Part shown: positions 1 to 55,873 of the stretch, piece by piece | How positions within the stretch are numbered: position 1 is the stretch's first letter | Layout of the letters: each line of letters opens with the position of its first letter | NCBI GenBank assembly: GCA_037379345.1 | Contig: CM074513.1 | Span: 53,609,195-53,673,194 of the forward strand | Source: Perna viridis | Lineage: Eukaryota | Reading direction: 5' to 3' | DNA: 64,000 bases | Position numbers and translations under genes: made by a program | The notes under the pieces: generated by a model | Databases searched by the model: none | Seen by the model: the letters and a program-made list of their open reading frames with translations, nothing else | What the model was told of the DNA's origin: nothing

Positions 1-24
1 TAGAGGAAGGTTTGTTTTTTGCAG

Positions 25-3000
25 ATTTATCAACCATAATAAGTTACAGATCATCCCAGAAGGTAACTAGAATACTATAAGCAGACTTACATAAATGGTA
101 TCTCCTGCATCCATGAGGATTCTAACATGTAAATGTAAGGTGGTTAAAAAGGTGTAAGGTACAAGACTGTAAGTAAAATCATCTCCTCTTGCAGTAATTC
201 AACAATAGTTTTTTTGGTTTTTTCACATCTACATAATGGTGACTGATTTTCCTATTTGAAATTTGCATCAAAGTTTGATGAAATGTGAGGTGGAGTTGTC
301 TTGAACATACTTAAACCCTTAAGTTGGAATAGATTCACTTTCAGTTATTTTAAAGTAATTAGTGTTAGTTTTGTAATTCTGCATAAAGCAGCTTGTTTTC
401 CATTTAGCTGTTCAGAAATTGAACTTACAAGACATATGGATAGACAGACAATTGAGCAAGGTGATTTCTATTTACCCTACCTTTTTAGAAGGCATTATAT
501 TAAAATGACCATTATTACAAAGTTTTTATATACCACTTATCTAACACATTCATTTATTATACTAAGTGCTTTACATTTCATATGAAAATAAATAACATTT
601 TAAAAAAATAAGTACAGATCAATTTATTTATAATTAAAACATATATTAAATATAAAGATAAGCATTTAACCAAAATGAAAGATGTGGGGGAAAAAAAGGA
701 AATATTGAAGCTAAAAATATTCTCATGTGCAAATAGAAACTTAAAATGAAATAGCTGAAATGATAAAATCAATTTATACATGTATTAAACTTTAAGTCTT
801 AATTATGACACAGGATCATGAAATTAGAAAGCAAGAGTACATGTTGTATTTGCAATAAAAAATATAAAACAAATTACAAAAACACTAGTCCGAATTTCCT
901 TTGACCCTGCAACCGTCCTCTTTTTTATTTGGATATTGATATGTCGGGTTGGGTTTATATCAATATCCAAATAAAAAAGAGGAGGGCTGCAGGGTCAGAG
1001 GAAATTCGGACTACAAAAACGCCTAGCTATGTAATTATTCTCAGTTTGGTGCAGAGTATGCATGATGTGGAAATGATTAATAAAATGTTACTATGTATTA
1101 TTATTTTCATTTCCAAGGAAAATAAATTTGTTGTAATAAAAATTCTAGTACTGGTAGTATATTAACTCTGCGATAAGACTTGTATTTTTTTTTCAGCAAT
1201 AGGAGATTTGGTTAATTTAGAGACTTTGAATGTTGCTGGAAATAAAATAGCTTCTCTGCCTAAAAACATTAAGAATTTACAGAAACTACAGAAATTGGAA
1301 TTATACAACAATATTCTACAGACACTACCACCCTGTAAGTTAACAGCATATTCTCAGACACTACCCTCCTGTAAGTTAACATGATATTCCACAGACACTA
1401 CCCTCCAGTAAATTAACATGATATTCTACAAACACTACCATCTTGTAAATTAACATGATATTCCACAGACACTACCCTCCAGTAAATTAACATGATATTC
1501 CACAGACACTACCCCTGTAAGTTAACATGATATTCCACAGACACTACCATCCAGTAAATTAACATGATATTCCACAGACACTACCATCCTGTAAATTAAC
1601 ATGATATTCCACAGACACTACCCTCCAGTAAATTAACATGATATTCTACAGACACTACCCCCTGTAAATTAACATGATATTCTACAGACACTACCCTCCA
1701 GTAAATTAACATGATATTCCACAGACACTACCCTCCAGTAAATTAACATGATATTCCACAGACACTACCCTCCTGTAAATTAACATGATATTCCACAGAC
1801 ACTACCCTCCAGTAAATTAACATGATATTCCACAGACACTACCCTCGAGTAAATTAACATGATATTCTACAGACACTACCCTCCTGTAAATTAACATGAT
1901 ATTCCACAGACACTACCCTCGAGTAAATTAACATGATATTCTACAGACACTACCCTCCTGTAAATTAACATGATATTCCACAGACACTACCCTCGAGTAA
2001 ATTAACATGATATTCTACAGACACTACCCTCCAGTAAATTAACATAATAATTGATCAGTATGAACTTGTTGTATGTCATATGAGTGATAATTTTTTTATT
2101 ACTTGTTCATTTGGACTGTTTACTGTAAAATAATGAAGTTTCAATGGCAAATTTTCAGCCCAAAATGATGGTGGCAAACTTATGGATTAAGTTATTAAAG
2201 GAAACCATTAGTCATTACATAAGCCATGATTCCTCTTGATTTTAAGCATTTGAATTGCTTATGCAATATACAAATTCTCTGTACATATATAATTCATGAC
2301 CCATTTGGTCCTTGTCTGTGACTATGTCTGAGCAGCATCTTTGTCTGTGTCATTGTCAACATCGGTAGACACTTGGTTTTTGTGAAAGAATTTTATTTCA
2401 GGCTAGTGTGTCTTGATAAAAATTTATAACAAGAAAATTTCAAAAAAAGAAGGTTTTAATTTTTGGGGTCACTGCCCTACCCCTTTAGAAATTATGGACC
2501 AGAAAGTTGCCAAAACAAGCACTTCATGAAGTTCACCTACATAACTCTTGTTTAAGTGTTTAATTGCAAATACCTAAATTCTTTAACTACTTATATTCTA
2601 GTCAGAATATTATGCTGTGTCAAAAAAGGGATTCACAATTCAAATTCAGACCTGTATGAAGTTATGAATGTTGTGCCCGTACTTGTTCCAACTGTTAAGG
2701 AAATAAAAAATTACCAAAAAAAACTTTCAACCTCTTTGTTTGTATCAAGCTGTGTGCTGGGCATCTTAGTTTGTTGTGTTCCACATTTGTTTCAGACCTC
2801 GTTTGAATTGAGTTTTATTGTTTGTCATGTGTTAAATGTTGTTTGCATTTGCTACATGTAGGGAGTGTTATGGAAAATCAGACTTGTTCGACTCCTCTAT
2901 CCCAAATTAGGAACCTCTGCCTGAAGGGGTAATTTGCAGTTTCAGGGGCCAGAGGAAGGCACACTTTGGGTGTTAGTCATTTTTCACCATTCATTGAATT

Positions 3001-6000
3001 ATCATAGACTGCTTTAATTTGGCAGTTTAATAGGATTGTTGTCTCTTTGATTCATTCCCACTTTCTTCTCTGTTGCAATGGTTTGTTTGTTTGTTTGTTT
3101 GTTGGGGTTTAACGTCCGAGCAGCAATATTTTAGTTATATTCAGACGATGGACATGAAATTGATGATAAAATGAACATGAAATGATGATGAAATGAAAAA
3201 GGGATGGGACACAAGGACAATGGGGTCGACAAATTTTGATTGCCACTGGAAATAGGGAGAGGTGGGTAGGGTCGGGCAATTTAGCCTCCTGTGGCGGAGC
3301 CCTATGGTTCCTACTCCGGGAGAATATCACAGTAGGGTTCTTTAACGTGCGACGAACGTGGCATCTTTCCCCAACATGGTGCACCACTATGGTTTGCGGT
3401 CAGGTTTTCCATATTATAGCCTGACAACCCCAGCATGTAACACGCCAGGGGTACCCCATTCCACCACCTGGGGCACACATCCCAGTTGCTCTGTGGGCAG
3501 AGGGCCCTAGCCCCCGGCTAGGGTTCTGAGCACTATTTAGTCGCCTTTTACGACAAGCTTAGCGCTGTTGCAGGCCTATCCTTTTAACACCCAGACCTAC
3601 ACGGGGCCTGTTGCAATAGAAAACAATGCAAAGAAGTAATATCAGACATTTTACTTTGGGTAAATTTTAATTGATTCGAAATATAAATCTTTATTTTAAT
3701 ATATATTTCATTCATTCAATTCAACTTTTGGAGTCTTAATTAATTAAGTGGTATTTATGACATATATCTTTCTGTTCATTATAGGCATTGGTAACTTGTC
3801 AGAACTAATGGTCCTTGTAGCAGCTAACAACTGCCTGTGCAGCATACCTGTAGAATTATCAAAGTGTAAAAAACTTGTGACCTTGAACTTTGATAATAAT
3901 AGATTGACTTTTCTTCCCAGGCAACTTCAGAGTCTTGATAACTTAGTGGAGTTATCTGTCAATGGCAATAATCTCTATATTTTACCACAAGGTAAGCCTT
4001 AAGGGAATTTGTTTACATGTGAGGGTAAAAAATGCTTGAAATTGTTATGATTTTCAAAGTTTGTTTTTTATAATGGAATTACATGTCAAAATGTAAATGT
4101 AACTTTTACTACATTTATCTGCCTACAACATAATAAACCTATCAGGAGAACAATTCAATTGTATATGAGGGAATTTGTTCGAAATTACAGAACATGCACA
4201 TGCAATGACAATCATATTGTATTATTTCATTCATCTGCTGTTTGAAATGATCAGAATTGTTTGTGTAGTAGGGAAACAGATCAATGAAGTTTGATATTTA
4301 ATCCTTTTCCTTGTCACAGTCTTGTGCATCTCAGACATAGAGCAAATTGTAGGAATAGTAACATAAACATATGATGTAATACATTCTTGACATCCTGAAT
4401 ATAAAAAATGGCAAAAGTATGTATTCAAATCAGACAGAAATGACCTAATCACCATCCTTCTGTTGAAAATATTTGGTATTTGACAATGAGTGACAATTTT
4501 TTTTTATAGAAATTGGTAATATTGATTGTCTATATGCTATATACGTGGACAAGAATGCCAGACTGTTTACCCTCCCAGCTTCTACTATTGACAAAGAGAT
4601 AGGATATTATAGGTAATTTATATACTCTCCACACATATATTATTACCAAAGAAATATGACATTACAGGTAATTATACCCTCTTAGCTTCTACGGTTGACA
4701 CATAAGTAGGATGTTATAGGTCATTATACCCAGGTTCTGTTATTGACAAAGAAACATGATACTATAGATAATTTTGTCCTCTCAGCTTCTACTATTGAAT
4801 ATAAAAATTATCTTGAATTTTGGATGCATTTTGAAAGGTCCCATACAACAAAAGGAAGGTATCATTTATTGTTGATAGTTATGGTCTTTAGACATATGCC
4901 TATTATACAGTTTTGTTGAAATTGTTGAAAAAGTAACAAAAATTTTTTCAAGATCCTGAACTTCCTACATAGGAGATCACGCTGCAGTACCTGACATGTA
5001 TTCTGTTACAACCATTTCTATCACGTGACCATGTGACCAGGTGCTGCAAAACATTTTATTACTTATCAGATAAATGTTTCAAATTCTGAAAAACCTACCT
5101 TTCCTCTTCACATTTCTTTGCCAAACTTCTGCTTAACCACATGTCATTTTCAACTCTCTTAACTCATTTTCAACTGTCCTTTGCTATGTTATTTTTGGTT
5201 GGCCTCTTGGACTTTTACCTTGTTGTGTCTGAAATAATTAATGGTTTATTTATTTTGTTGTTCTAACAATATTTAACTTAAGAGAATTTATCATATAAAA
5301 AATTAAGCTTAGATATTTATTCTTTAATTAATTTCAGTTGTGCCACAACACCTATCCCAGGAGATTTACTGGAGAATATAAGCCATATCTATATACAGCA
5401 TTCTATAACTGAGAAGATACCCCTTGTATTACCTCCAGAGTTAAGCCATGTTTTAGATACTAAGGACTGTGTTCCAACATTGGTAGAATTAGCATTGAGA
5501 AAGTGCTCTGAGTGTTCATGTGGCAGAGGTATGTATAGTGTACTTTTGATTGTCGATTTTCAGCCACTGAAAAAGATGTACCATATGTCTTTATATTTTA
5601 AATTTATGTTGTTTTTTTTTACCAATATGGAAATAATCGATTTCACACATTTAAAATATATAAAACAATATTATGCTTTCCAATATCATACCAAAATATT
5701 GTCTGTTCATACGTGAGGTCTTATTTATGGAAACAAATATTTACCATATGATTTTTTTATTCGTGTATTTTATGAAATAATTCATTTATAGCAGATGTTT
5801 TATATTTTTGATGGGGTGCTTATTTTAGCATATTTTAGTAGTCTGTCTATAAACCATACCTGTTAACCTTTGAAACAGTTCATGTGGGAGATTCTTATTA
5901 AAAAGCAATTTTTTTATGTAAAAGTGCAATTATTTAGTAAAATATGGTAAATATAGTAATTTTAAGCAAAAACATCCCACAAGTCTTACATTTTTATGTG

Positions 6001-6864
6001 CAAGGTTCTAAATAGACTCCCTCCTAATGTGGGAGGGTTAACAGGTATGATAAACATCAAAATTAATTCTGTGCAATATTACTCTGAATACTTAGTATAC
6101 AACTTAGCAACTGCTAAAATAAGAATTGGCAAAATTTTTAGCATTTCTTTCTTTCCTTAAAATCACAAAATTTTACACCTGCTTAAAAAACCTGACACAT
6201 TGTTGTAGCAGTTTGCAGTGATGAGTTCTGAGAGTGAAATTACAGAAATTATTTCACTTATAATTTATCAAAATTTATTACATATTTGATAATTCACTGT
6301 TATCTATATAATGAACAAAGGTATTTAACATTTTTCCATCCATGCAAAACCAGACAGGATAGTCAAGGATGTTAAAAAAACCCTCAGTCAGTAACACATT
6401 TTAAAATATAATTTGACTTGCACATAGACAATCAGGATGAAAATGTAGCTTCATCTCAGCTTTCAATGTCAGAAATTTAAATCGTGGCAAGAGTATCTGA
6501 AATTGTAGTCAAGGAAAATATATAAAGAATCATAGAGTTAAAGCAAAACATTCTTTGTCCGTACTTCAATACCATAATTATACAGTATAACCATTTTCTT
6601 TCAGATAAAAAGTTTAGTATTCCACAAGATTTGTCTTCCCTATTGGCTTGTCCCACAGCAACATGTGAAATGTGTAATAGTAACATATTCACCTCGGGTT
6701 TTCCAGTTGTCTACAAACATACGTACCATTCTGTGTATCTTCTTGGACTGTGCTGTAGTCTTGCCTGCACAAAACAATGTTATTTTACAAGAAAGAGACA
6801 CTTACCTGTGGTGTATCCAAGTTCTGAAGACTTACAATTAGCTCTCGTTCTTGTTTATAATTGA
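25..6864 (+). CDS. LRRC28: LRRC28-like leucine-rich repeat protein with BC-box and C-terminal Cys motifs (5' part outside window)
   Basis: Phase-compatible GT-AG exons: 25-62 (FINHNKLQIIPE), 1197-1334 (2 LRRs, IGDLVNLETLNVAGNKIASLP...), 3785-3991 (3 LRRs), 4510-4612, 5338-5528 (LVLPPEL...VPTLVELALR, BC-box-like), 6605-6864 (SIPQDLSSLLACPTATCEMC...IFTSGFP...LLGLCCSLAC, TGA). The C-terminal pattern matches my recollection of LRRC28 (LPRSLLELLHCPLGHCHRC...FVAYCCSTQC). Confidence 0.85.
886..1013. mobile_element. Fold-back MITE with TAG...CTA ends and a 9-bp TSD (AcademH- or Mutator-like)
   Basis: About 55-bp near-perfect inverted arms (tagtccgaatttcc...gatattgatat / atatcaatatc...ggaaattcggacta). 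Flanked by caaaaacac (877-885) and caaaaacgc (1014-1022). Confidence 0.8.
1311..2045 (+). repeat. 37-bp minisatellite (about 20 copies) derived from an LRRC28 exon/donor junction
   Basis: Unit ATATTCCACAGACACTACCCTCCAGTAAATTAACATG. The first copy is the exon 3' end plus GTAAGT at 1335. Confidence 0.95.
3080..3607 (-). mobile_element. SINE-like retroposon with (CAAA)n tail, 10-bp TSD, Meta-like and Deu/Nin-like cores, no tRNA head
   Basis: TSD ctgttgcaat at 3070-3079 and 3608-3617. (GTTT)n on + at about 3081-3103. The minus strand contains CTTGTCGTAAAAGGCGACTAA and GCACGTTAAAGAACCC, which I recall from conserved SINE domains. GC-rich relative to flanks. Confidence 0.75.
4571..4800 (+). repeat. 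Degenerate tandem repeat of about 50 bp (about 4.5 copies) of an LRRC28 exon end plus donor
   Basis: The unit cagcttctactattgacaaagagataggatattatag|gtaatt recurs with variants ending attacag|gtaatt, gttatag|gtcatt and actatag|ataatt. Confidence 0.75.
5855..6049. mobile_element. MITE with 14-bp TIR and apparent 6-bp TSD (hAT-like)
   Basis: catacctgttaacc ... ggttaacaggtatg, flanked by ataaac on both sides (5849-5854 and 6050-6055). Confidence 0.7.
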
Positions 6865-7704
6865 ATTTTACTCAGGATTTCCAATTAAGTTGGTACCAAT
6901 ACAAGAACTAAAGTCACTAGACTAGAAATAATTATAATTCCCAACAAAATACTTCTTGATGGTTATGATATTTGTGAAGTTTTGGTATAGATAAACAGAC
7001 TTCTTTGAATTTTGCTCAACCACACAAATTGATGTGTATAGTATTTTTCTAACTGCATCTTGCTTTATGTTTTTACAACTTTACCCATTTTACCTGGTTC
7101 TTATTGTAATAAGCTTTGGACCTGATATATTTATACATGTTATAATATTTATAATTATTATACTTGCATTGTCATTAAAAATAATTTTAAGACTACAACT
7201 CTTTTTTTTTCTCGGGCACTGTTTATATTAAGGATATGGCACTGTAGTCCAGTGATTATATTGTCATTGCATTTAGATGTCTGAACATAATTTTAGTTTT
7301 AGTTTGAAACTGTAACTCGATTAGTGTTTCAAACATTGGTATTGATTTCTTGGAATATACCAGGTAGCTCTGAACAATTGGAAATAGTGTCCAAATTTAG
7401 AAAAAATGGCGATAATGAAAATACATGTAGTGTGTATTTATTAAATTTATTACTTAATTTTGCCAATGTTGTAATGATTTCCACAGTGGCCTGATTTTAA
7501 AGGGATAGGGTTGTGATCACACCAAAGTACTTAAACCCTGCCACATTTTTTACGCCTGTCCCAAGTCAGGAATTTCTGGCCTCTGTACATCTTGTTTTTT
7601 GTTTTCAGTTTATTTTTATGTTACTTGAGTATATAGAGGCAACGCTTTCTCTATACCTGTGTATAATGATGTTTTGGGACCAGCTGCAGCCTGCCCTGTA
7701 GTGA

Positions 7705-7933: not shown

Positions 7934-10841
7934 ATTCTCTTTAATATAAAAATTTTTGAAGATCTTTAAAGCAATCACTCTGCACAAGCACTCTTTCCTT
8001 GGTCTTTTTCTGAGTTTACACATAAAATATTTTGGGTACATTTATAGACAGTGCATTTTGAAGAATTTATCTTCATTAAAGAAGACATAAAATAGTATGA
8101 AACAAATCAATCTGAAAGTCAAAAGTCTTATTCAACCCTATGCTTATAAAAACAGTATAAAGAGCCTGAATCACTATATTGGCAACTTCAAAAACTTAAA
8201 GATCAGGAGTATTCATCCATTCATGCAGACATTCAATATTTTTCAACAGAATCAGAAAAATTAATGAAAAAGCTAGAAAAACTGAGAGCAAAGCACAATG
8301 AAGGATACTGCCAGTCAAAATGGATAAAATAAAAGTAATCACCAAAAAGTTGACATTAATTCAGTTTGAAATCGAATAATATGATATAGCATACCTATAT
8401 GGAAAGCTGTCAAATTATCAACTGGATCTGATAAATAATTGCAAAGAAAACTTTAACATAAAAGTTGTAAATGGAAGGACACCATAAATTGACAGTAACT
8501 CTTAAAGTATAAGTGGTACATCCAAAACATTTTGATACTACCAGAATACAAGTATGATTGGAATGGAGTGATGAAAAAACTTCTACAGTATAACAAATAA
8601 CAATATAGTAACGTCAAAAGTTTGTTAACTTTACAACAACAACAAAAAAAAAGCACTGTTTAAATTTAAACTTTTAAAAATTAATATTACACGTTACCTT
8701 CCTTTTTTTATGAGAAACTTTTTAGTACAAAATCATAATAATCGACACTATTACTGAACTTTTCTTTAGCAAAACTGAAACTTGTTTTTGTCCATAATTC
8801 CCCTAATTTCTAAGTTTCATAACACCAAGATTCAATTCCAATATCTTTTTTCATGGTATGAAACCATGTGATACAGGTATAATGATACATACACTTTAAC
8901 TCGCTTAATGTCAGCAAACCAGAAAAAAAGTTTCTGGTCCCTTTTTATTCTCTGATTCCTAAAACCTTGTAGTATGATTTTAGAGATCTATTAGCAATTT
9001 TACTCAATTTTTTTCAAAGAAAGATCTAAAATGAGGAAAAATCTTGTTTCTTGCCCCTTTTGGCACATAATTCATACATGATCAGGTCAGTCACAACCCG
9101 TAAGTACATGTACATTCCAGCCTTCCTTTTGTGATACATGTATGTCCATCAGTATAATTTCAAAGAGATGAATTCACTTATCAAATGGCCACTGACAGAT
9201 TACACTGTGACTGAAGACAGCTTGATACAATTTAATAAATGCAATTTTTGTGTATTTGATTAAAGCAGCAAAAACCTTTGATTTGGGCCCATCATGAGAA
9301 TAACTCTTACAAAGAGTTACTGACTCATATTTACCTAAAGAGATATTGTTATTCTTGCTTTCAAGATCATTTTTTCCACTTAAGTTCTTTTCTATTTATT
9401 ATGGTTTTCAAGATAGCCTAAAACTGCAAAAATTGTCATTTTTTGCTTTTCAAGCAGAATAAACCCGATTAAAAGTCATCATAAAACTAGATCCAAATGT
9501 GACCTTCATACAACCCTCCAAATTGATGAATATTTTACCTGTACCGCTTATAGCTTATACCTTTGGGGTTGTAAGTAAAATCTATGGCCCCATTTACCGA
9601 AAATTGCATTGCAGGTTATGTTTAGTGTTCAATTATTATAATTTATTTGATTTTCGAAGTTCATGTACATGTAGATACCTTTGATGCTTGTACATTTTCA
9701 ATGAATGATTTTCTTAGTGTTTTAATGAAAAAAATACTGATGACAGAAATTAAAAATGACAGATGCAAAGTGACTGCAATAGCTAACATTCATTCATTCA
9801 AATAAAAAATGTTTTTTTTTTACATTTTTTATTTTATCCAATGATAAAAATGTTTTCATTCAGCAACACAACATTAATTCAATGAATCATACTAATAGAT
9901 GAAGGCCCTATCCTTTACCTTAACATGTTACAGTAAATGAATGTCAATCATAACACTTTAATGTACTATATGAAGATCAATTAAAAAATAATCAATTATG
10001 TTAAAACAAAATAAAAATTGATCCATTGCAGACTTGCTTTTAACAATATATGAAAAATTTACACAAAGTTTAAGTTCTACATAATAAAAAAAACAATCAT
10101 TGAACCTTCTTATCTAGCTAAAGTGAATGAAAAAGAGAGGCCAGAGTGGGTCCTATGATCAGTTTGTTGTATATAAGATACACAGAGCAATTAAACTTTT
10201 ACTGAAATACAACTATTATGCATATTTTAAAACAATAAACTATTAATAACAAGAACTAAATGAGCCTGATCTTATCAAAATATCACATAATTTATGAAGT
10301 TTCAAGTAATTTTAACAGTCCTTAGGTGCATTAATATACCAATTTTCAAGTCTCCAGTTTCATGATTGAACAAAACTTGCACAACTGAATATACATGTAT
10401 GTTCATGCTCTCTGAATATCACTTAAATAAAAACAAACAATAACTTGGAAATATGTTCAACATATTATTGTAGTATTTTTAAAAACCTGAATAGAATTAG
10501 AAGAAAATCTTATGTCAAATAAAGCAAAATTTTTCTTCCAGAAATCTTAGATATAATTCATTTGAGAATTTTTGGCAATACAGTGGCTTGAGAGAAAGAG
10601 AAATCAGGTTTTAAGAAGACACAAATGCAAAATGATGGCAATAACTTAGGACTGAGATTATGAAACTGGTTCAAAATATGCATGATTTATTGTTACTTGA
10701 AGCAGTATGACACAAAATGGTTATATGTACCAATCTATGATTCCTTGCATAAACTAAAATTAATGAAATTATGCTAACTTTAAACTTTGCTGCTTTGCTC
10801 TGATTTTGTTGTGCTATGTTCAGTAAAATATACAATATAAG

Positions 10842-11879
10842 CTATGTTCCCTGTCCCTGATTATAAAATGATAGTCCTTTGGATCCTATGGCAACAGAAA
10901 CTGCATGATCAAGGAGATCATTACTATTTGTGGATGACCCTGTATTACTGGTTGGTGTATGGTCAGTTCTATTGTGTGAAGATACTGACAGAAGACAGCT
11001 TGATGAATGAGCGAGATCAGATAACACAGTCACTGGGTTACTACATGATGTCTGAGGAATGAGCCCTTGTAATTTTATGGCCTCAGATATAGCATGGTTT
11101 TCAACTAAGTTTGTCACAAATTGCTGAGGCTCTGGAGACACACCCATTTCCTCAAGAGTCTTGTTAATTGCATTGTCAACTATAGATTTAGCAATATGTT
11201 GATTCTGCCATCGTTTCAAGTACAAATTAAGTTCCTCTTCTCTTTGTCGACTTGAGATTAAAAGTCCTTCCTCCTCAATTTCAGGGTCAACACTGGTGCT
11301 AGATGGTTGAGCCATAAGACTAGTGGCATCTGAAAAACCTGACATAACGGAAATTCTTCCATCTTCCTTAGGTAAATCAGAGTCTTGTCCATCAAAACTA
11401 AAGTTGAAATTAGAACTAAGTGGACTACTTGTTCTAGAAACATTATAGATACTACTACAGCCCTCTTGTACTGATGATATTGGTGTCATGGGTGTTTGAA
11501 ATGGAGATGAATTGGTATTTTCTGTCTTATTACAGAAGGAGGACTCAATTGAGGATGATACATTCAGATTCTGTTGTTCATGTTTAGAATTAACAGTAAC
11601 AGAGCATTCCATTTCTCTCTCCAGTTTGCCATCATCTGCACACGGTAATTTATTAAGATTACATTCACACATAGAAGTACCTCCCCCTGAATTACAGTGT
11701 TGACATGTTGAAACACTGTCACAGATAACAACATCAGTTACACTAGAGAAATCTTCTTTATTACTTCGTTTTATCTGCCAAGAATAACGTGCTTTTTTCA
11801 GAGTGACTGAATCACAGTCCATATTACAACCATCCTTCCGTTTTGAGAACGTAGTATCCATTTTTGTCCACTGTACCAT
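10842..11879 (-). CDS. Uncharacterised 345-aa protein: Ser-rich middle, C-terminal amphipathic helices (AKAP-like)
   Basis: 1038-bp ORF in AT-rich DNA. A splice acceptor (tttgtttacag|) 6 nt before the ATG (exon starts 11885) implies an upstream non-coding exon. Motifs: LKKARYSWQIK, RWQNQHIAKSIVDNAINKTLEEMG, LLDHAVSVAIGSKGL. Confidence 0.85.
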   Translation of the reverse strand: MVQWTKMDTTFSKRKDGCNMDCDSVTLKKARYSWQIKRSNKEDFSSVTDVVICDSVSTCQHCNSGGGTSMCECNLNKLPCADDGKLEREMECSVTVNSKHEQQNLNVSSSIESSFCNKTENTNSSPFQTPMTPISSVQEGCSSIYNVSRTSSPLSSNFNFSFDGQDSDLPKEDGRISVMSGFSDATSLMAQPSSTSVDPEIEEEGLLISSRQREEELNLYLKRWQNQHIAKSIVDNAINKTLEEMGVSPEPQQFVTNLVENHAISEAIKLQGLIPQTSCSNPVTVLSDLAHSSSCLLSVSSHNRTDHTPTSNTGSSTNSNDLLDHAVSVAIGSKGLSFYNQGQGT

Positions 11880-11989
11880 TAAAACCTGTAAACAAAAAGT
11901 TAATAAATTGTAAACAATAAATTCTTTTGAATTTTGATTACGATAAGATATTTCACACAGGATGAATATTTGACCAGAATCAAAGACTG

Positions 11990-12755
11990 GTCACTTTTTG
12001 GCCCTTATTCCTAAATGGTTCCAGTCAAAACCTCAAATCTGTAGAGGTATGGCACCTTGCAGTTTCTGCTCCCTAATTTTTACTTGGCTCTACTCACTAA
12101 AAACTAAAAATATTAATTCCAGCCTTCCTTTAGTCACTAATAGTGCTATGGCACCTTGCAGTAAAATTTATACGAGATCCATTCACGTTTACACAAGTTA
12201 TTGTCTGGACACAAGGAAAATGTTTTGTTTTTGATAGACCCCTTTTTGGCTCATAATTCCAAAAAGGTTCAAATCTTAACCCACAACAACAATCCCAGTC
12301 CAGTGGTGTATGATACATTGTAATACAATTTCAAAGAAATTAATTCACTTATAGTCAATTTATCTAGAATCAGGAAAATGCATGATTCTGGGCTCCTTTT
12401 TGGCCCCTAATTTCTGATATAATCAAATCTTAACCCCCAAAATCAATCCAAGTCTGACTATTGTAGTGTAGAATACTGTGAAACAATATCATAGATGCTC
12501 CTATGCTTTAATTTAAATTCTATAAAATGCTTGTTTTTGACCCCAATTGACCAGTAATTCCCAAATTGTTGGGACCATAACCCCTAAAATCAATACTGAC
12601 CTTCCTTTGTGGTTTAGAACCTTGTAAAAAAACTTCATAAAGATCAACTAATATTCAACTTATCAAATGAAAACCAAGTGTCTATGAACTACAACATGAA
12701 CAATGACAGTACCATAACATTACGTGACTGCAAATTTCTTGTAGTTGTATAAAAC
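11990..12755. mobile_element. Decayed Helentron-associated (HINE/DINE-like) element with internal 170-180-bp repeats
   Basis: Repeated units such as tttttggccc(c)taattcc...aacccc(c)aaaatcaatccca...ccttccttt. A related fragment lies near 9040-9190. Confidence 0.45.
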
Positions 12756-12975
12756 TATAAAAGATACAATTCAGAAAAAGAGTAAAAAAAATAGTTTGGG
12801 TTAGTTACACCAGTATGGCTAAGGGGTAAGGTTAGCTGTATTATCAGTTAATCAATATTGTTTACAATAAGATAGTGCATCATAGGCCTTCAAAGGCTGA
12901 CTGTACTTGTATTCATGGTTGTATAGAATGATAAATCAGGTTGCATTATAATAATAAAACATATATATATATATC

Positions 12976-14332
12976 TGTAAAACTCAAAAGTGTGATGGGG
13001 ACGCCGAAGTGCTTTGGTCGTGCTGATCTGCGATGGTCAACGCTGAAGTACATTTGATGTTTAACGCAACGACGCGGAACTGTGTTGGTACACTAACGTC
13101 ACCACGAAATTTTACGTGCATAAGCGCGTACAATGTTACAGAGAAAACTAATAAACTGAAAGGCAAGTCATGAGAGTAGCTAGTATATTGTTGGCTGTTT
13201 AAACAAATGTAGCATGCATCATGATAATTATTGAGTGTTAACAGTACATGTATTTAATGCAGTATCAAAAAAATTAAAACATACGTTACAATACTCGAGG
13301 TAATGCGAGAAACATAAACTGTAGCTATAGGTTACAAAAGATAGCAGATATTGAAAGTGTTATTTTATGCATCATGAAAACTATAACAGATATAATTAAA
13401 ATATTTACCAGGACAACTTTGTTACATGTACAATTGTATAAAAATCAGAAAAAAATATTGCTTTTTTATAACTTTGATATCATGGAATTTTTCCTTTTGA
13501 AAAGTAACACATGATTTCACAATGAATCATGGAGCGTATTCTATAATTGAAAGGCGAAATAGAAACTGCAATATACAAGTTAAAACTGTAATAGAATGTC
13601 GAAGTTCGGATGGACCAGACTGACACGTTTCTCTTCATATTACGTATAGTCCGTTAATCCATCAAATCTAGTAAGACCTCTGTAGCATCAATCATTCTTT
13701 GATAACCTTAGCAGTAGTGTATATGATGACACACATGCAGAAAAAAGCAATGTCTTATACAACATTACATTTGTATTTGCAGATTCTACAGGTACTATAG
13801 ATCAGTTTGTATGTAGTACATGTAGTTTATACACTAATACAGAAGTCTTAAAGCTATCCACAACCATTCTATAGCTAAGCTAGTCAAGAAATATTTTCAT
13901 ATTAAAGAGTACTCGTCCTTCTAAGAGACTGCCAGTTTTATTCAATTTTCAACTGGGTGTAGGAAAAAAATGGAGAAAAATTATTAAATTTGTGTTTATA
14001 ATTTCCTCTATAGTTGGAAGTATGAACGAAATGAAAGCAGTTTTTTTCTGATTGCATGTAGACTAATATCATATCGGTAGAATTTCAAGATAATCGTATA
14101 TTTATGGTATCAACGGAAAAAATCTACATGATAGTCAAAATATTTCAGTGAAGTACACAACAAAACCGCACCTTATTGTAGTGGCCAACGCATTTATGCA
14201 TTGCTATTGGCAGAAAATAATCATGTCTAACCATCGCAGTTCAGCGTGATCATAAACCAGCTTCGGCGTACAACCATCGCACTTCTGTGCGACCATCATA
14301 TCTCGTCTTCCATCGCGGTTCCGAGTCTTACA
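12976..14332. mobile_element. Non-autonomous DNA transposon with TGT...ACA ends and subterminal repeats, inserted in (TA)n (Ginger-like)
   Basis: Left end tgtaaaactcaaaagtgtgatgg; reverse complement of right end tgtaagactcggaaccgcgatgg. Each end has 4-5 copies of an about 17-bp CCATCGCA(G/C)TTC(A/G)GCG-like motif in inverted orientation. TA runs flank both sides. Confidence 0.7.
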
Positions 14333-14450
14333 TATATATACCAGAAGGCATGTGAAAATTACTAGCACTTACCTCCTTCAGGCATGATGGCATGACTAAC
14401 CCTCATTACAGTTGAAATTTATATGAATTATATTTAAACAAGGTATTATT

Positions 14451-14684
14451 TGAATTAGGAATTATTTTGGAATTTAGAAAATGACAACCAAAATAATTTG
14501 TAAAAATAACCCTTACTAAGAAGGTTAGTCATACCGGCATGACTAAGGGGTAAGGTTAGTTCCATAACAAAAGGCATGGAAAACTTACTAATTCCCTTAG
14601 TCATGACTAACCTCCCTTAGCAGGGGTAAGTTTTATAATATTTTTTGAATTTTTTTTCTTAAATCCAAAATAATTCAAAATTCA
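14451..14684. repeat. Diverged inverted repeat (fold-back relic)
   Basis: 14451-14532 is roughly the reverse complement of 14603-14684 (atgactaacct..cttag..gggt...aatccaaaataattc). A related motif also occurs at about 12799-12840. Confidence 0.55.
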
Positions 14685-14894
14685 TATCATACTTATTTTT
14701 TATAAAAAATTCAAAGTAATTAAAATACCTTGTTCTATAGTTAAAGACCATGTTTCAGTAAAAATTATATCATCTTCTCGGAGTCTTTTCTAATTTTGTT
14801 CCTTATATTAAAAGAAACGAATTAAGTTCAGGAAAAATTTAATGTACAATGTTTAAGTATCTTTCTATGTTGATCCATCTTCAAGAACCTAACC

Positions 14895-15267
14895 AGTATG
14901 GTTCTGCCTAAAAACCAGGCAGAGGGTAGTTCTTCGTATCTTAAGACAATCAATAAAACTGCATAAATACATTTGTTAGGTTCTAAAAACAACTCTTCCT
15001 AAGTTCATGTCCTTGAATGTGCTACTAATTGTAAAATATTTTGTGTGTTAAAATTCTGGCGAAAATTTTCCTGTAATTTTTCTGTAGTTGAACATAACCA
15101 AATTTAAGTTTTAATATCTCCAGTGAACTACATTTACTGCACAAACATTTCCTAATACAGTTTCTATGGGGCCTACAGAAGGATTTTCAATAAAAAAAAA
15201 TTGGGGATTAAGAATTGTTTGAGTCACCATTATAAGCCTCTGCCTGGTTTTTAGGTAGAGCTGTACT
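14895..15267. mobile_element. MITE with about 31-bp TIR
   Basis: agtatggttctgcctaaaaaccaggcagagg ... cctctgcctggtttttaggtagagctgtact. Confidence 0.65.
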
Positions 15268-15522
15268 TAACAATAGAAAAGTTCATAATGGACAAAATTA
15301 AGATAATTTGGAATATTTAATTATTTACAGATACCTCCAAAATGAAGAAAAACAATATGACCCTTTGAAATCTGCCTTCAAGAATTGTTTTGTTACTAAT
15401 ATTTCCAATATTTGATAAATAATTCCAACATTGAAACTTTTAGATTTTTGTTTGTTGGACATTCTTTTTTTGTTGAGTTTGTGAAAGTTGTTCAAATGTA
15501 TAAATGATTTAATTTATGATTT

Positions 15523-15683
15523 AGACAACCAAAGGGTACATGGAGAAGGACGTTAGAAGGGGGGATGAAAATGAATGGAATCAGTTGGGATGAAATGGAA
15601 AGAAAGGCAAAAGACAGAGGTGGATGGAGGACCCTGGTGGATGCCTTATGTGTTGCACAACTCTAAGAGGATATGATGATGAA
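15523..15683 (+). mobile_element. 3' fragment of an RTE-clade LINE
   Basis: Translates RQPKGTWRRTLEGGMKMNGISWDEMERKAKDRGGWRTLVDALCVAQL* followed by a (TGA)n tail. This fits the typical RTE ORF C-terminus (W..A.DR..WR.LV.ALC). Confidence 0.8.
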
Positions 15684-17593
15684 TGATAGAGATCATCTTA
15701 AAGTACATACATGTATGTTAATTTCAAGTGATAAAAAGGAAATTTCTAAATGATTTCAATCCTAAATCAATTTCAATCAAAAAATTATTTGAAAAGGAAT
15801 TGAAATAAGATAAACATCATTTTGAAATAATTTGCCTAAAAAAGCAAAGTGTTTAAATTCCCAAATATAAATACATGTACATGTATGTCTCTTTTAAGAA
15901 ATAGATTCTACAATGTACATAGCCATAATTGTCAAATGCTATATTTTCATGAAAAAATACTAGCATATTTCTATTTATTTAGTGGAATTGTATTGTATCC
16001 CATATGGCTCCCCACTTGAGAAATCTCTGCACCAGAAGTAGGTTACAACACCAAAAATGGCAAATAATTGACATCTGATCTTCATTCAAGGGTTTAAAAA
16101 TTAAACAATGACAAAAATATGCCATAATATACTGAAGTGAAAAGTAAAATATTAAAAGAAATGAATATATTTATTTTATATTTATATAAATAACATTAGC
16201 GTTGTCTTTCCAGATCAGTACCTCGGTCTAACAAATAACATTTTGAACATCAGAAATGGGTTAACCCAGGAGATGTATAAACTGATTATCAAACTTAAAC
16301 TTAAAACTTATTGTTTAAGTTTTTGCTCTTAACTTTCAGATAATGATAATAATAATAAAAATATGGACTAATACATGCAAGTGTGTTAAATCGAACATGC
16401 TTAATTTACATATATAATCAAGGAATTCTTTATACATTCTGCGATTAGATCTTAATAAGTGAGGTCGCTCTTAAATGTATAGAAATTCATCTAATAATTC
16501 ATCATACTGACACTTGAGAAACTTTCGTCTAAGCATAACACTACATCTGGGTACATTAAGCTTAAAAAATAGTAAAAATGCAGCCTAGACAAAAAGTTTA
16601 AAGACGTCTTTGTTCTACTTCCTGTTAGAGATCTAGATAACACCTGCAATCTACACTGAACCCTGACAATTTTTCTGATAATCTTACGATTATTTGGAAT
16701 CTCCCACTTATATACTGATGAAAAATTCCTAAAAGAAACTTGGCAAAATGATGGCATGGAGTCTAATTTGTTGAAAAGGGAACCTGATATCTTTGCTTTG
16801 GACTTCACTTGCACTAAAGACCACTGCCCTCCTCAAATTAATAATATTTGCAGCAGAGATAATTGCCTGGAAAATATAATTTACTGATTTTAATGATCCT
16901 AGACTAGAGAACCAAAAATTGAATTTTGAGTATGATGTACCCCACAGTGTTAGCTTATAGAGGCAAAACCTACTCAACATTTGCATTGCATTAGGATGAA
17001 AGGAATTTCCAACCTATTATGTATTGTAAAGCATCATAGACCTGTAATTATTTTTTTAATGTAATTTGTAAATCATGCAGTTAAAAACTTCCATTTTTTC
17101 GGCTGAAAATGAAAACAAATTTTGCAAACATTCTAAAAAAAGAATCACTTAAACATATAGAAAAAATAAATTACTTCAGATTAAAATCTTCCATTTACAA
17201 TGTCAATACGCAGGAATTTACATCTCTACTTTTGACAGGTGCTCTTTGTTTACAAACATCTCAGTGATACCGATTTTTACAACACCCTTTACACAATGAC
17301 ATACAAACAGTCAAAAGACACAAATTCTGTTTTTTCCAAGGGGTGAAAAATATTATTTATTGAAATTTAAAAAGCTTTTTGATTTCTCTTAATAATTGAT
17401 ATCATCAAGTGAATTCGCTGATGTAACAATTCTTTAAATCTGATGAAAAAAAAAATAATATAAAAAAATATCTCGATAAAGGGAGACTTGCACGATACCA
17501 GTTCTCCTCCATATTTGTTATTCTTCGCGACCAGACGTGTCTGCGATCTATAAAAATGTTTCCTGCTGAAAAGACATGAAAATGAATGGGCCC

Positions 17594-44408
<26,815 letters not shown>

Positions 44409-48269: not shown

Positions 48270-51200
48270 TCATTCACCAAATAATGACAGCATATGCTTG
48301 TCTATCATTTCTCTTACTACAAAATAAGATACAATTGCAGGTTAAACATTTTAAAAATTAATAGAATCATTAGGTTTTATCTACAACTTAAATCATTTAT
48401 CATGAAAAAAACAGTGTTCAATTGTTAATTGAAATCACAGAATAGAAAAGTAGTCCTGTGATAGTTGTATTTAGATAAAACATTAAGTTATTGTACTACT
48501 ATTTAATTACACTTGTTTACCAAGTTTACATGTCAAACACAGTACATGAAAATTATTTGATCTAATCTGAAAGTTTGAAGCAAGTTAAACTAAAAATCTT
48601 CAGCCTAGTTTTGTTAATGTGAAAATTGTGACTAGACTTACTACATGTAGGTTGTTATCATTTTAGGAAAGAATTTTAATTATTAGATTGATAAGCTCAA
48701 CTTGAATATTCAGCACAAGTAGTTATATCACATTTAATGTATTAACCAATGATATTAATTGAATCTATAAGAACAGCAAAATGGACATGTCAGCACATCG
48801 ACATATAGACATAACCTACGTCACCACGTTGCATATTGACCTTACGTTATTATCCAGATACCAAATGACTACAAATAACAACACATCACCAACAGCATGA
48901 TACATGTACCATAATACAACCCCATATTTTTTTTAGTTATATAAAAATGCTTTAAAATATCCAAGTCACAATTAAAAATGCCAAAAATACAAGAATAGAA
49001 AGTACCTGCTGCATTTCCTTGTCCCACAGCCAGTTCCATGGCAGTCATATCATCTTCATTCTGTACAGTGAGGTCTGCCCCTGACTCTAACAGCAGCTGT
49101 ACCACACCAGCATGATTTCTATAGGCTGCATACATCAGAGCTGTACTACCAGTCTATAGATATAATACACAGATAAAAGTAGATGGTATTTTTTGTATAA
49201 ATATAAAAAACCTGATATTTCATCTTGTTACCTACAACAACAGTTTATTCATCCCAACTCTACAAAAATGTAGAAACTGTTTCTAGGAAAGGCCCGTTAC
49301 AATCTTAATTATCTTCATCCAATGTTCTGCTTACTTTTTCATGTTCTGAACCAGTCCATAAAGACTTTTTGATATTGAGGTAGTTTATACAAAGAAAATA
49401 GGTCAAAGAGATAACAACCCAATACAGAGGTCAGAAAGTCCTGACTTGGAAAAGATACAAAAAATGTGGCATGGTTCAAGTACTTTGGCTTGATCACAAC
49501 CCAAACCTATTACATGGGGCATTCTTTTCTGTCATCTTGCAAAATCCTACAGAAATAGTGTTTGAAATGATGTAAAAAATGTCTTTTAATAATTTAAAAC
49601 AATTTTTGGCATAAAACTATATGTGGTAAATTTACAAAGTTATTTTAAAAAGCCTCTTTCAAGGGGGAAATAATTGATGGGATAATGTTCTATAGAAATG
49701 TAATGGGAATTGTAGGTTTTTTTATGTTACAAGAAAAAAAGTTCAATGACCTCCATTTTCTTCTTGAAACATGTCAGATAAGTGGTCTTTATACAAATAT
49801 TTTAGAAATTTTATCAACCAGTTTTTAAATAGTTTGTGATATAGTGAAAAGCTCCTACAGAATCTATATAAAATGTTGTAAACAAATCTACTATTTTTAG
49901 ACTCGGTGATCTTGAAACTATGTTCAATGACTTGTTTTTTTATATTAAAATTTCACAGTATGTTTTTTCAAAGTCGCCTTAGAGAAAAATGAGGAAAATC
50001 TATATGCTTGAAATAGAAGGTATGATCTACATTACATGTCATTTTCACTCAACAAAATATACCCCAATTACACATTACCATTTACATCTAATGAGAAATA
50101 ATTTTATCAAAATATGTTTTATACCTCATCTACATAATTAATATCCAGGCCTTTTTTTAGACAAAGTTTGACAATATCCTTGTATCCGCCAGAGCTGGCC
50201 AATAACAGACAGTTTTCTCCATTTTCTCCCATGGCACAGATATCAGCACCATTATCTATCAGGAACTCTATAGTAGTCAGCTGACCATAAGCTGCTGCCC
50301 ACAGTAAAGCTGTTAATCCACCCAGTTCATCACATTTGTTCACATCTGTACCTAATTAAAATAAACAAAACTGAAGATGACCTTATTATGAGATACTACA
50401 ATGTTGTAATTTTAAAAGATTGAATGATAATATTTATTGTACAATATTCACTCTCCATAAATTTTTACTAACATAATGCCTTAACTGGTCTATTTTTATT
50501 TGCCTTCAAAATATTAAATATTCAGACTGAAATTGCAAACTTTTGATAAACAAGTAGCTTAAAAAAAGATTATGTACAACTGACTGAATATGGTTCGATA
50601 AAAGTATTATGTACGACTGACTGAATATGGTTAGATAAAAAATATTATGTACAACTGACTGAATATGGTTAGATAAAAAGCATTATGTACAACTGACTGA
50701 ATATGGTTAGATAAAAAGGATTATGTACGACTGACTGAATATGGTTAGATAAAAAGCACTATGTACAACTGACTGAATATGGTTAGATGAAAACATCATG
50801 TACAACTGACTGAATCTGGTTAGATGAAAACATCATGTACAACTGACTGAATATGGTTAGATAAAAAAACATTATGTACAACTGACTGAATATGGTTAGA
50901 TAAAAAGCATTATGTACAACAGACTGAATATGGTTAAATAAAAAACATTATGTACAACTGACTGAATATGGTTAGATAAAAAGCATTATGTACAACAGAC
51001 TGAATATGGTTAAATAAAAAGCATTATGTACAACTGACTGAATATGGTTAGAAAAAAACATTATGTACAACTGATTGAATATGGTAAGATAAAAAGACAA
51101 TATTTAATTCAACTAAACTACTAAATAACTCATAAATTTTATTCTGACTTTAAGATAGTTTCTGAAATTACCGTCATTGATTTCTTGTAGAAGTAATTTT

Positions 51201-54200: not shown

Positions 54201-55873
54201 ATATTCATATTTCTTTAGGAATTTGAATTGGTTGTTTGACCAAAACCTCCTACACCATGAAAATTGGAGCCTCAAAGAAAAATATTTCTTCCACAGTAGC
54301 ATGTCAAACTGGAAAGCTTACAAGATCATGATTAAATTTGGAGGATATTTTCCTACAATGTATAGTCAAATCTTACATGGAAAGCTTTTTAAATAAGTAG
54401 AACTTACAATAAGATTAAAAGTGGTACTTTCAATTTACATTAATACTTTTTAAGTCAGTTTATATGTTTGTTTTTCATATAAATTTATTCTGCCAGTTTT
54501 CCAGCTGTTTACATCACTGAAAATTATTGTAAATTAACTAAAATGTACCCTTGCAGCATCTGCAGACTTCTTGGATGGAGAAATGCATGAATCATCTTCA
54601 GAGTTTTCTATAACAAAAGGAAATTTACACAAAAACTTGTCATGATGGCAGCTAGAATATGAAATGCTAGATACAAAAATAATTTGTGATTGCTTGTTTC
54701 ATGTGTTCCTGTGTGCTGTTTGTTTCAACAAGTTGTAATTTAATTGTGTAGAGCAACTTAATTGATCGTCATCTGTCATCCATTTATTGTTTAAGCCTTT
54801 CCTTCATGGGATTTGACTGATGTACCACTTTTTTCACAAGTGGTTTCAGTCAAAAATTCAAAATGCTCTAGATAATTCATGTTTAGTCCAAAAAACCTCA
54901 CACTTGGTGGAAGTATTTACTAGCAAAGTGTCTTCAAAAGGCTGTATTATGGCTACCATGTATTAATCAGTATTACATGGTAGGGTCAGATACTTAGCCT
55001 TAAAATATAGCTATTGAACAAGTTTTTAGGCTATTTGGCAAATCTGTAAGGCCCCTAGATTTTGCAGTCAGGAACAACATTCCCCCTCCGGGACCCCCTG
55101 GATTTTCTTTTTGTTCCCAATATTTCTGAAAAATGGTGAAATTTTTTGCTATAAGCCATTCTAGCCAAATGGCTTACTCCCTCTACAAGCTTTAGAAAAA
55201 GGGGTGGGTGTTTTAAAAGAAGTAAAGGGTTAAAAGAATTAAAAATCCATTTTTTAAAACCCATATATATCTTTTTTCTATTTAAAAAATTGCCTACTGG
55301 TGAAGTTTCGCACATCTCTTAATTCAAAAAACGTTGACATTACTTATTTAAACTTACTAATTATCTCATAGACATTACAAAAGACTAGAACCTGGTAATA
55401 CATTGTATCTATTTCATTTGTATACGACTGCTTTGATGATTATCTCACGGAACAGTTCCCACACATCTTACTTTCACTATCTTATTCATAGTGAAATGTA
55501 TACATATAACTATTATTTACAGGAATCTGTTCTGAAACTAGTCTCTTCATATTTCTAGTTTAATATACATATACATGTATATGCCAAAACAGGGGGGGGA
55601 CATGAACTATTTCTAACAAATCAATAACTGCATATATTCTTTAAAGAACTTACCATCAGCCAATACTGAGGCAACCTCTAAATCATTCTGTTCTTGGTCA
55701 CTATCAAAAGGTGATACTAATCTCAATGAAGTTGGAAACCTTTTCAGGGGAGATAATACAGGTGGTCTCTTCATACGTTCTGGTGATTTCTTCAGGTCCT
55801 TCTTCAGCATCTTGTCATCTCCATCCATTGTTGAACTGATCAAAATTGAAGTACTATGTGGAAGGTGAAACAT
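48270..55873 (-). CDS. ANKRA2: Ankyrin repeat family A protein (ANKRA2/RFXANK family)
   Basis: Minus-strand exons: 55873 (or 55828)-55654, 54607-54549, 52470-52407 (PTTVMTNLQRGN), 51237-51172 (FHQMAAQGE), 50351-50125 (GLTALLWAAAYGQ, GENCLLLASSGGY), 49153-49006 (GSTALMYAAYRNH, MTAMELAVGQG), 48316-48270 (VREMIDKHMLSLFGE*). All phases compatible, five ankyrin repeats, 261-276 aa. An acceptor at 55884 implies an upstream UTR exon. Confidence 0.92.
50568..51095. repeat. 38-bp minisatellite, about 14 copies, in an ANKRA2 intron
   Basis: Unit attatgtacaactgactgaatatggttagataaaaagc. Confidence 0.95.
52487..53214 (-). mobile_element. Helentron-associated element (sub-TIR, GTCC microsatellite, 160-170-bp internal repeats, terminal hairpin)
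   Basis: tataccc...cgcaactttgttgcg...gggtata at 53182-53214, gacggactgacggacg, three ctgtaacttatcat units, tgagcgcgctca hairpin at about 52498. Confidence 0.7.

What the first reader, a model, noticed from the sequence alone, without database searches (positions are those of the whole stretch)
10842..11879. Unrecognised 345-aa protein with an AKAP-like docking helix and two related helices
Seen: QNQHIAKSIVDNAINKT (about 11157-11207), then FVTNLVENHAISEAIKLQGL and DLLDHAVSVAIGSKGL. These form three repeats of roughly [LIV]-[DE]-x-A-[IV]-x-x-[AT]-[IL]-x-x-x-G-[LV] after a long Ser-rich, probably disordered linker. The N-terminus carries a basic-aromatic motif, LKKARYSWQIKR. Known: the optimised RII-binding peptide AKAP-IS is QIEYLAKQIVDNAIQQA, so AKSIVDNAI matches 8 of 9 core residues. 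Such helices bind D/D domains (PKA-R, DPY-30, ROPN1/RSP-type). Inference: a multivalent D/D-domain scaffold, possibly nuclear, encoded head-to-head with KATNAL2. I do not recognise the family.
Basis: partly seen in the sequence, partly recalled or inferred. Interest (0 to 1): 0.7.

Follow-up and report, generated by a model that had tools for sequence, protein, structure and literature searches.

The report
Undescribed protostome-wide three-helix scaffold protein
This is a real, expressed gene of an unnamed protein family shared by molluscs, segmented worms, insects and their kin; four short conserved motifs in a predicted floppy chain suggest a likely nuclear adaptor that would grip a partner protein, and only one of its three helices resembles a kinase-anchoring (AKAP) helix, with binding untested.

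Summary
A spliced, single-copy gene on the minus strand (ORF 10842-11879) lies head-to-head with a katanin-like gene, about 275 bases between their 5' ends. The protein belongs to an unnamed family: 230 representatives at E<=0.001, with named members in bivalves, a gastropod, annelids, a brachiopod, a priapulid and arthropods. There is no Pfam, PDB or fold match, and gene-id searches found no paper. Four motifs are conserved in order: KKAR[YF]xWQ[IV]K and three copies of a 15-residue helix ending in Gly-Leu. The three-fold repeat is statistically real. The AKAP reading is only partly supported. Helix 1 has four hydrophobic pairs and matches 8 of 9 AKAP-IS core residues, but only 38 of 174 members do. 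Its most invariant residues are polar (D235, N236, N239), so both faces seem to be in contact, unlike a helix lying in a D/D groove. Helix 2 has a near-invariant Glu where a docking helix needs a hydrophobic residue. Best reading: a likely nuclear, disordered adaptor whose helices fold together on one conserved partner. D/D docking by helix 1 (DPY-30 or PKA-RII) stays open at about 25%; three equivalent D/D sites are unlikely.

The parts
10842..11879 (-). Coding sequence, 345 aa, all in one exon. A second in-frame ATG (Met8, nt 11858) has a better start context and aligns with the first Met of several homologues.
   Evidence: stranded RNA depth about 5-7 in three runs
17175..17260 (-). Non-coding first exon (5' end approximate; a few reads in one run reach about 17460)
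   Evidence: joint 11883-17173 CT..AC in 6, 8 and 9 reads of three RNA runs; depth profile
11886..17174 (-). 5.3-kb intron in the 5' UTR, GT..AG
9965..10841 (-). 3' UTR; ATTAAA at 9962, AATAAA at 10691 and 9833
   Evidence: contig 9965-11883 in run X5
11766..11843 (-). aa 13-38: KRK, then KKARYSWQIK. NLS-like basic cluster (inferred) followed by a conserved aromatic stretch [YF]xWQ[IV]K
   Evidence: KKAR-like in 143 of 174 members, with an upstream basic pair in 61 of those; W34 83%, K37 84%
11250..11762 (-). aa 40-210: Ser-rich, predicted disordered linker; spacing between flanking motifs 52-400 aa across the family
11139..11210 (-). Helix 1, aa 224-247 (WQ...AKSIVDNAINKTLEEMGV): AKAP-like hydrophobic pairs plus near-invariant D235, N236, N239
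11061..11105 (-). Helix 2, aa 259-273: second repeat copy, E260 near-invariant, Gly-Leu end; held 28-42 aa from helix 1 in 80% of members
10872..10916 (-). Helix 3, aa 322-336: third repeat copy, Gly-Leu end, a median 6 residues from the C-terminus
17260..17535 (.). Short gap between the two divergent 5' ends, a likely shared bidirectional promoter
17535..17647 (+). First exon of the neighbouring katanin-like AAA gene (ATG at 17594; KATNAL2 by recall)

Best explanation
The gene is expressed and encodes a member of an unnamed protostome-wide family, a predicted mostly disordered, likely nuclear adaptor whose three repeated Gly-Leu-capped helices would fold together onto one conserved partner protein. 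Shown: gene structure, expression, single copy, family breadth, four motifs in fixed order, the three-fold repeat. Predicted: the helices and the disorder. Inferred: (1) KRK...KKAR is an importin-alpha type NLS, and the adjoining [YF]xWQ[IV]K is a second, strand-like binding site; (2) helix 1 is clamped on both faces, its hydrophobic stripe against helix 2, helix 3 or the partner and its D235/N236/N239/E243 stripe hydrogen-bonded to a specific surface; (3) helices 2 and 3 dock in the same way on two like sites; (4) the long variable linkers only tether these sites. The partner is not identified.
For: Conservation is confined to four short blocks among linkers of 52-400 and 43-260 aa, the usual signature of binding motifs in a disordered chain (established knowledge). 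AlphaFold2 gives three confident helices (202-245, 253-271, 319-333) with pTM 0.29 and 0.34. In helix 1, N239 is kept in 174 of 174, N236 in 173 of 174, D/E235 in 173 of 174, E/D243 in 165 of 174, W224 in 156 of 172, while pair positions vary (A237: Thr in 74, Ser 6, Asp 2; I233: Ser 3, Glu 2, Pro 1, Thr 1). Mean entropy is 1.40 bits off the hydrophobic face against 1.93 on it (rough axis). Helix 1 to helix 2 spacing is tight (median 32, 10-90% 28-42.5). Helices 2 and 3 are the closest repeat pair (0 of 100,000 shuffles). KKAR-like motif in 143 of 174.
Against: No partner is named, so the statement is broad. No localisation or binding data. Covariation gave no clear helix-helix contacts (effective depth 92). 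The 174 sequences were selected by a profile of these same motifs and include near-duplicates and one misaligned fragment (P0153), so conservation counts are partly circular. Helix 1 also fits the loose D/D-docking pattern. The upstream basic pair of a bipartite NLS is found in only 61 of 143.
Confidence: 0.45

Rival explanations
1. Helix 1 (perhaps also helix 3) docks in the groove of a D/D dimer, making the protein an AKAP or DDIP. If it is nuclear the partner would more likely be DPY-30 than PKA-RII; its polar face would bind something else.
For: Four hydrophobic pairs at 4-residue spacing in 139 of 174 members counting Thr, the pattern described for RIIa- and Dpy-30-binding helices (PMC3494852, passages). 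Four turns suffice for DPY-30 (PMC12203939, passages). 8/9 AKAP-IS core match, unique in this genome as a codon pattern. The genome encodes RII, RI, SPA17-like and DPY-30 domains. A nuclear AKAP95 binds DPY-30 (PMC8339350, PMC12203939, passages).
Against: Strictly hydrophobic four pairs in only 9 of 174; the fifth (N-terminal) pair in 2 of 174, whereas PKA-R is said to need five turns. Hydrophobic moment 0.28 against 0.44 for AKAP-IS. 90 of 174 members match 5 or fewer of the 9 core residues. The invariant residues are polar. An 8/9 match has about 0.09 chance per proteome. A helix-1 profile pulled no named AKAP from the PDB at E<=10 apart from RSP3 at E=0.86, below unrelated enzymes (chains under 20 aa are not in that library).
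Confidence: 0.25
2. All three helices are equivalent D/D sites: a trivalent scaffold.
For: The three helices are true repeats; helix 3 has three strict hydrophobic pairs in 167 of 174. Dual-helix AKAPs exist (PMC12083921 section 4).
Against: Helix 2 has Glu260 in 167 of 174 at a pair position and one or two strict pairs in 160 of 174; its hydrophobic moment is 0.13, helix 3's 0.18. The conserved Gly-Leu cap is not mentioned as a D/D determinant in the passages read.
Confidence: 0.05
3. The three helices pack on each other (or across a homodimer) as a small autonomous domain, and the AKAP likeness is just its buried face.
For: Small residues at i, i+4 in all three helices (A230/A237/T241, A263/A267, A326/A330) allow close packing; tight helix 1-2 spacing; pTM rose from 0.29 to 0.34 with a deeper alignment.
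Against: Helix 2-3 spacing varies from 43 to 260 aa. Structure searches with the model aligned only the long helix, best Z 4.4; this is inconclusive, as coordinates and pairwise errors were not visible to me. No covariation signal between helices.
Confidence: 0.17
4. Helices 2 and 3 are ubiquitin-binding helices of a UIM-like kind (acidic patch, then hydrophobic-x-x-Ala-Ile), making the protein a ubiquitin-chain reader.
For: Helix 2 consensus VEDEGVSMAIQSHGL has an acidic lead-in and a central Ala-Ile; the UIM pattern is recalled, not from a call.
Against: The position of the UIM serine (recalled) holds His/Gln/Arg (271) or Lys/Gln (334). No UIM hit in Pfam scans of 20 and 35 members.
Confidence: 0.06

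Closest known systems
AKAPs (RII-anchoring helix; AKAP-IS peptide)
   Same: An isolated 14-18 residue amphipathic helix with hydrophobic pairs every four residues in a disordered chain; 9 of 17 identities to AKAP-IS in the window protein.
   Different: No homology to any AKAP in Pfam or PDB. Four, not five, pairs. Polar face near-invariant across protostomes. Helix is one of three Gly-Leu-capped repeats. Binding untested.
DDIPs that bind DPY-30 (ASH2L, BAP18, AKAP95, RSP3), as defined in PMC12203939 (passages)
   Same: Four-turn amphipathic helix; several are nuclear.
   Different: No shared domains (no SPRY, SANT, zinc finger or RSP3 domain above cut-off). RSP3 appears only at chance level (E=0.59, 0.86, 0.014 below cut-off).
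Disordered adaptors built from short helical binding motifs (general class, own knowledge)
   Same: Short invariant motifs in fixed order, long low-complexity linkers, NLS-like cluster, no catalytic domain.
   Different: This motif set (KKAR[YF]xWQ[IV]K; WQ..VDNxIN; two AIxxxGL helices) matched no family in the libraries searched.

Membership tests
AKAP (PKA R-subunit anchoring) | 14-18 residue amphipathic helix (PMC12083921, passage) | tested here: met
   Helix 1 only: predicted helix at pLDDT above 90; four pairs in 139 of 174 counting Thr; moment 0.28.
AKAP (PKA R-subunit anchoring) | Five helical turns of hydrophobic face (PMC12203939, passage) | tested here: inconclusive
   Fifth pair (225/226) in 2 of 174; but AKAP-IS itself has only one hydrophobic residue there, and W224 or M245 might stand in.
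AKAP, type I selective | F/Y-Ala at helix positions 1-2 (PMC12083921, passages) | tested here: not met
   In the AKAP-IS register these positions are Q225 (90%) and a variable residue.
AKAP (PKA R-subunit anchoring) | Direct binding to an R-subunit D/D dimer | not testable with these tools
   Needs overlay, ITC or pull-down.
AKAP (PKA R-subunit anchoring) | Homology to a described AKAP | tested here: inconclusive
   No significant Pfam or PDB match; AKAPs share no homology with each other outside the helix, so this does not exclude membership.
DDIP (DPY-30 binding) | Four-turn amphipathic helix (PMC12203939, passage) | tested here: met
   Helix 1 has four pairs counting Thr; helix 3 has three; helix 2 has one or two.
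DDIP (DPY-30 binding) | Binding to DPY-30 and co-localisation with it | not tested
   The genome's DPY-30 domain is split by an intron and was not modelled.
   Helix 2: Glu260 in 167 of 174; pair 259/260 hydrophobic in 4 of 174.
UIM (ubiquitin-interacting motif) | Ser four residues after the central Ala (recalled); Pfam UIM match | tested here: not met
   Positions 271 and 334 are H/Q/R and K/Q; no UIM hit in 20 and 35 members scanned.
Known globular fold | Structural match covering the three helices | tested here: inconclusive
   Foldseek none at E<=0.001; VIA-align best Z 4.4 over the long helix only; the helical region was not modelled alone.

The most novel reading that the evidence does not exclude
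An undescribed, single-copy, protostome-wide D/D-docking scaffold: a nuclear protein whose natural helix has converged on the laboratory-optimised AKAP-IS sequence and that tethers DPY-30 (COMPASS/NURF) or PKA-RII to a second complex through two further repeated helices. It would be an ancient invertebrate-specific AKAP/DDIP missing from current AKAP evolutionary trees.
Probability: 0.25. Interest if true: 0.65.

Novelty: new variant of a known kind. Interest (0 to 1): 0.45.

Why it matters
A gene kept with near-invariant motifs across molluscs, annelids, brachiopods, priapulids and arthropods, yet without a Pfam family or a name, is likely part of a core animal process and is easy to test in an insect model such as a beetle or moth (RNAi, tagged pull-down). 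If helix 1 binds a D/D domain it adds an invertebrate branch to AKAP/DDIP evolution: PMC12083921 (section 4) places only five AKAPs before the bilaterians and the main expansion in vertebrates. If not, the AIxxxGL repeat is a new binding motif awaiting its partner. As it stands it is a well-defined unnamed family with an unproven mechanism.

Tried and rejected
Complex prediction of aa 212-340 with two copies of this genome's RII D/D domain (L002:1492-1626) gave no verdict: scores 0.21 and 0.15 against a mark of 0.34, alignments not used, controls not folded. It is evidence neither way. Only this one job was available; RI and DPY-30 were not modelled. Pfam: only sub-cut-off hits (20 + 1 + 35 proteins scanned, not all 174). 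PDB by sequence: 0 hits with A1, 1 with A3 (RSP3, E=0.59), 8 with the helix-1 profile, all E>=0.2; I did not check whether the RSP3 stretch is one of its D/D-binding helices, and treat it as chance. Fold searches found nothing clear. Atlas: no usable feature hit for two homologues, structure rows all TM<0.36. A recalled AKAP regular expression matched 8 of 174 in register, but I could not find it in print, so I do not rely on it. Covariation showed no interpretable contacts. No full RFX X-box pattern between 17,000 and 17,800, so no sign of ciliary co-regulation with the katanin-like gene. No RNA holder was on record in the run index; expression rests on raw reads laid. A third homologue search with the deep alignment added only 3 proteins and no new named taxa. 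Literature: 10 gene or protein ids and 2 motifs in full-text searches gave 0 papers; AKAP plus Mytilus gave 3 unrelated papers (listing only). Supplementary tables, where such gene ids usually sit, are not covered by these searches. Earlier findings: nothing. A separate profile search with helix 3 alone was not run, so helix 3 was compared with the PDB only as part of whole-protein profiles. Recalled look-alikes (centrin/calmodulin-binding WQ helices, ENY2-binding helices, DDB1 H-box, PP1 RVxF) were considered and not tested.

Full report
The gene. The ORF lies at 10842-11879 on the minus strand and encodes 345 aa. Stranded RNA reads cover it at depth 5-7 in three runs, and 6, 8 and 9 reads join 11885 to 17175 across a GT..AG intron. 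The coding sequence is therefore one exon behind a short non-coding exon ending near 17,260. The plus-strand neighbour starts near 17,535, with ATG at 17,594, so the two 5' ends are about 275 bases apart. The neighbour has a katanin-type AAA exon; I call it KATNAL2 from recall of its N-terminus, in line with the LisH-plus-AAA layout in the abstract of PMC7072489 (search listing). The core of the protein matches once in the 723-Mb genome. The nearest named relatives are bivalves.

The family. A single-sequence search found 20 relatives among 1347 candidates and a profile 38 among 7988. A profile search of 1.84 billion representatives gave 230 at E<=0.001, 151 at <=1e-10, of which 150 were listed. 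Named members come from oysters, scallops, ark and freshwater clams, a gastropod, Capitella, Paralvinella, Lingula, Priapulus, a centipede, a sea spider, a mantis shrimp, a wasp, a beetle and a butterfly; every name is 'uncharacterized' or 'hypothetical'. A quick tree of 172 motif cores groups the named arthropods with Priapulus apart from the named lophotrochozoans (no support values examined), as expected for one orthologous family. Pfam, PDB sequence, fold and Atlas searches gave nothing significant. Full-text searches with ten gene or protein ids and two motifs found no paper; supplements were not searched.

Anatomy. I aligned 174 sequences: all fetched up to except the exact copy P0002, including seven near-duplicates and one misaligned fragment. 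Four blocks are conserved in fixed order: P[LF]KKAR[YF]xWQ[IV]K (aa 26-37); WQ...[IVML]AK[ASG][IF]VDN[AT]INx[TV]LE (aa 224-243); [VIL]E[DN]x[GA][IV]xxAIxxxGL (aa 259-273); and [FLIV]L[DN]xAVxxAIxxKGL (aa 322-336), a median 6 residues from the C-terminus. Linkers run 52-400 aa before helix 1 and 43-260 aa before helix 3, but helix 1 to helix 2 is tight (median 32). AlphaFold2 predicts three helices (202-245, 253-271, 319-333) in an otherwise low-confidence chain, pTM 0.29 with 28 sequences and 0.34 with 150. The last 15 residues of each helix align as one repeat: 35, 8 and 0 of 100,000 column shuffles reached the observed profile scores. The register was picked by eye, so the first two figures are optimistic.

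The AKAP resemblance. The AKAP-IS string is in print (four papers, listing only). The window protein matches 8 of 9 core and 9 of 17 residues, and the codon pattern occurs only here in this genome. The chance is about 3e-6 per protein but 0.09 per proteome. Across the family 38 of 174 keep 8 of 9 and 90 keep five or fewer. Published criteria are loose: a 14-18 residue amphipathic helix (PMC12083921, abstract, passages and section 4), three or four hydrophobic pairs at four-residue spacing (PMC3494852, passages), five turns for PKA-R and four for DPY-30 (PMC12203939, passages). Helix 1 has four pairs in 139 of 174 members if Thr counts, in 9 if not, and the fifth pair in 2. Helix 3 has three pairs or more in 167. 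Helix 2 has one or two in 160, because Glu260 (167 of 174) sits at a pair position. So helix 1 is a fair D/D candidate, helix 3 a short one and helix 2 not one.

What argues for something else. A helix lying in a D/D groove leaves one face to solvent (established knowledge). Here that face is the more conserved: N239 in 174 of 174, N236 in 173, D/E235 in 173, E/D243 in 165, W224 in 156 of 172. A few members put Ser, Glu or Pro at I233 and Asp at A237 while keeping D-N-x-x-N. Mean entropy is 1.40 bits off the hydrophobic face and 1.93 on it (rough axis). These counts are partly circular, since members were found with a profile of the same motifs. I infer that helix 1 is contacted on both faces, and that the three repeats, which share an acidic or Asn residue at position 3 and a Gly-Leu cap, act as one binding module.

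Mechanism. Most likely (0.45) a disordered, nuclear adaptor: the KRK...KKAR cluster would import it (KKAR-like in 143 of 174, upstream basic pair in 61), the three helices would fold on one conserved partner, and [YF]xWQ[IV]K would be a second site. Rivals: helix 1 docking on DPY-30 or PKA-RII (0.25; these domains are encoded in the genome; nuclear AKAP95 binds DPY-30, PMC8339350 passages); an autonomous three-helix domain or homodimer (0.17); UIM-like ubiquitin binding (0.06); three equivalent D/D sites (0.05). Localisation and every binding step are inferred.

Verdict. Observation confirmed, interpretation partly supported. It is an unnamed, deeply conserved family with a defined motif architecture, not fileable as an AKAP on present evidence. 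Interest 0.45; 0.65 if D/D docking is shown.

Noticed in passing
window 17194-17175 and 11885-11879 (-): In the spliced 5' UTR an 8-codon upstream ORF crosses the exon junction and its TAA stop overlaps the first ATG (TAATG); two more upstream ATGs lie in exon 1, one followed at once by TAA. Met8 has the better start context. Possible translational control.
   Followed up: partly
window 1-7100 (+): A spliced leucine-rich-repeat gene (LRRC28-like by recall) ends tail-to-tail with this gene, about 2.9 kb from its 3' end.
   Followed up: partly
window 36362-38108 (+): A broken Tc5/pogo-type DNA transposon (HTH_Tnp_Tc5 and DDE_1, in several frames) inside an intron of the katanin-like gene.
   Followed up: partly
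window about 48800-55900 (-): An ankyrin-repeat gene (ANKRA2/RFXANK-like by recall) converges on the katanin-like gene.
   Followed up: partly
L005 (G000:C3:35439599-35442706): A second RII-like PKA regulatory subunit with a 399-aa open frame, apparently intronless, besides the intron-containing RII at L002.
   Followed up: no
P0124, P0158: Two family members have a divergent helix 1 (Glu at 233, Asp at 237) yet keep D-N-x-x-N and the other motifs; useful natural variants for binding tests.
   Followed up: partly
P0011, P0012, P0014, P0015, P0017-P0019: Oyster members keep KKAR but have lost the following WQ[IV]K, which suggests that the basic and aromatic halves of the N-terminal motif are separable functions.
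   Followed up: no
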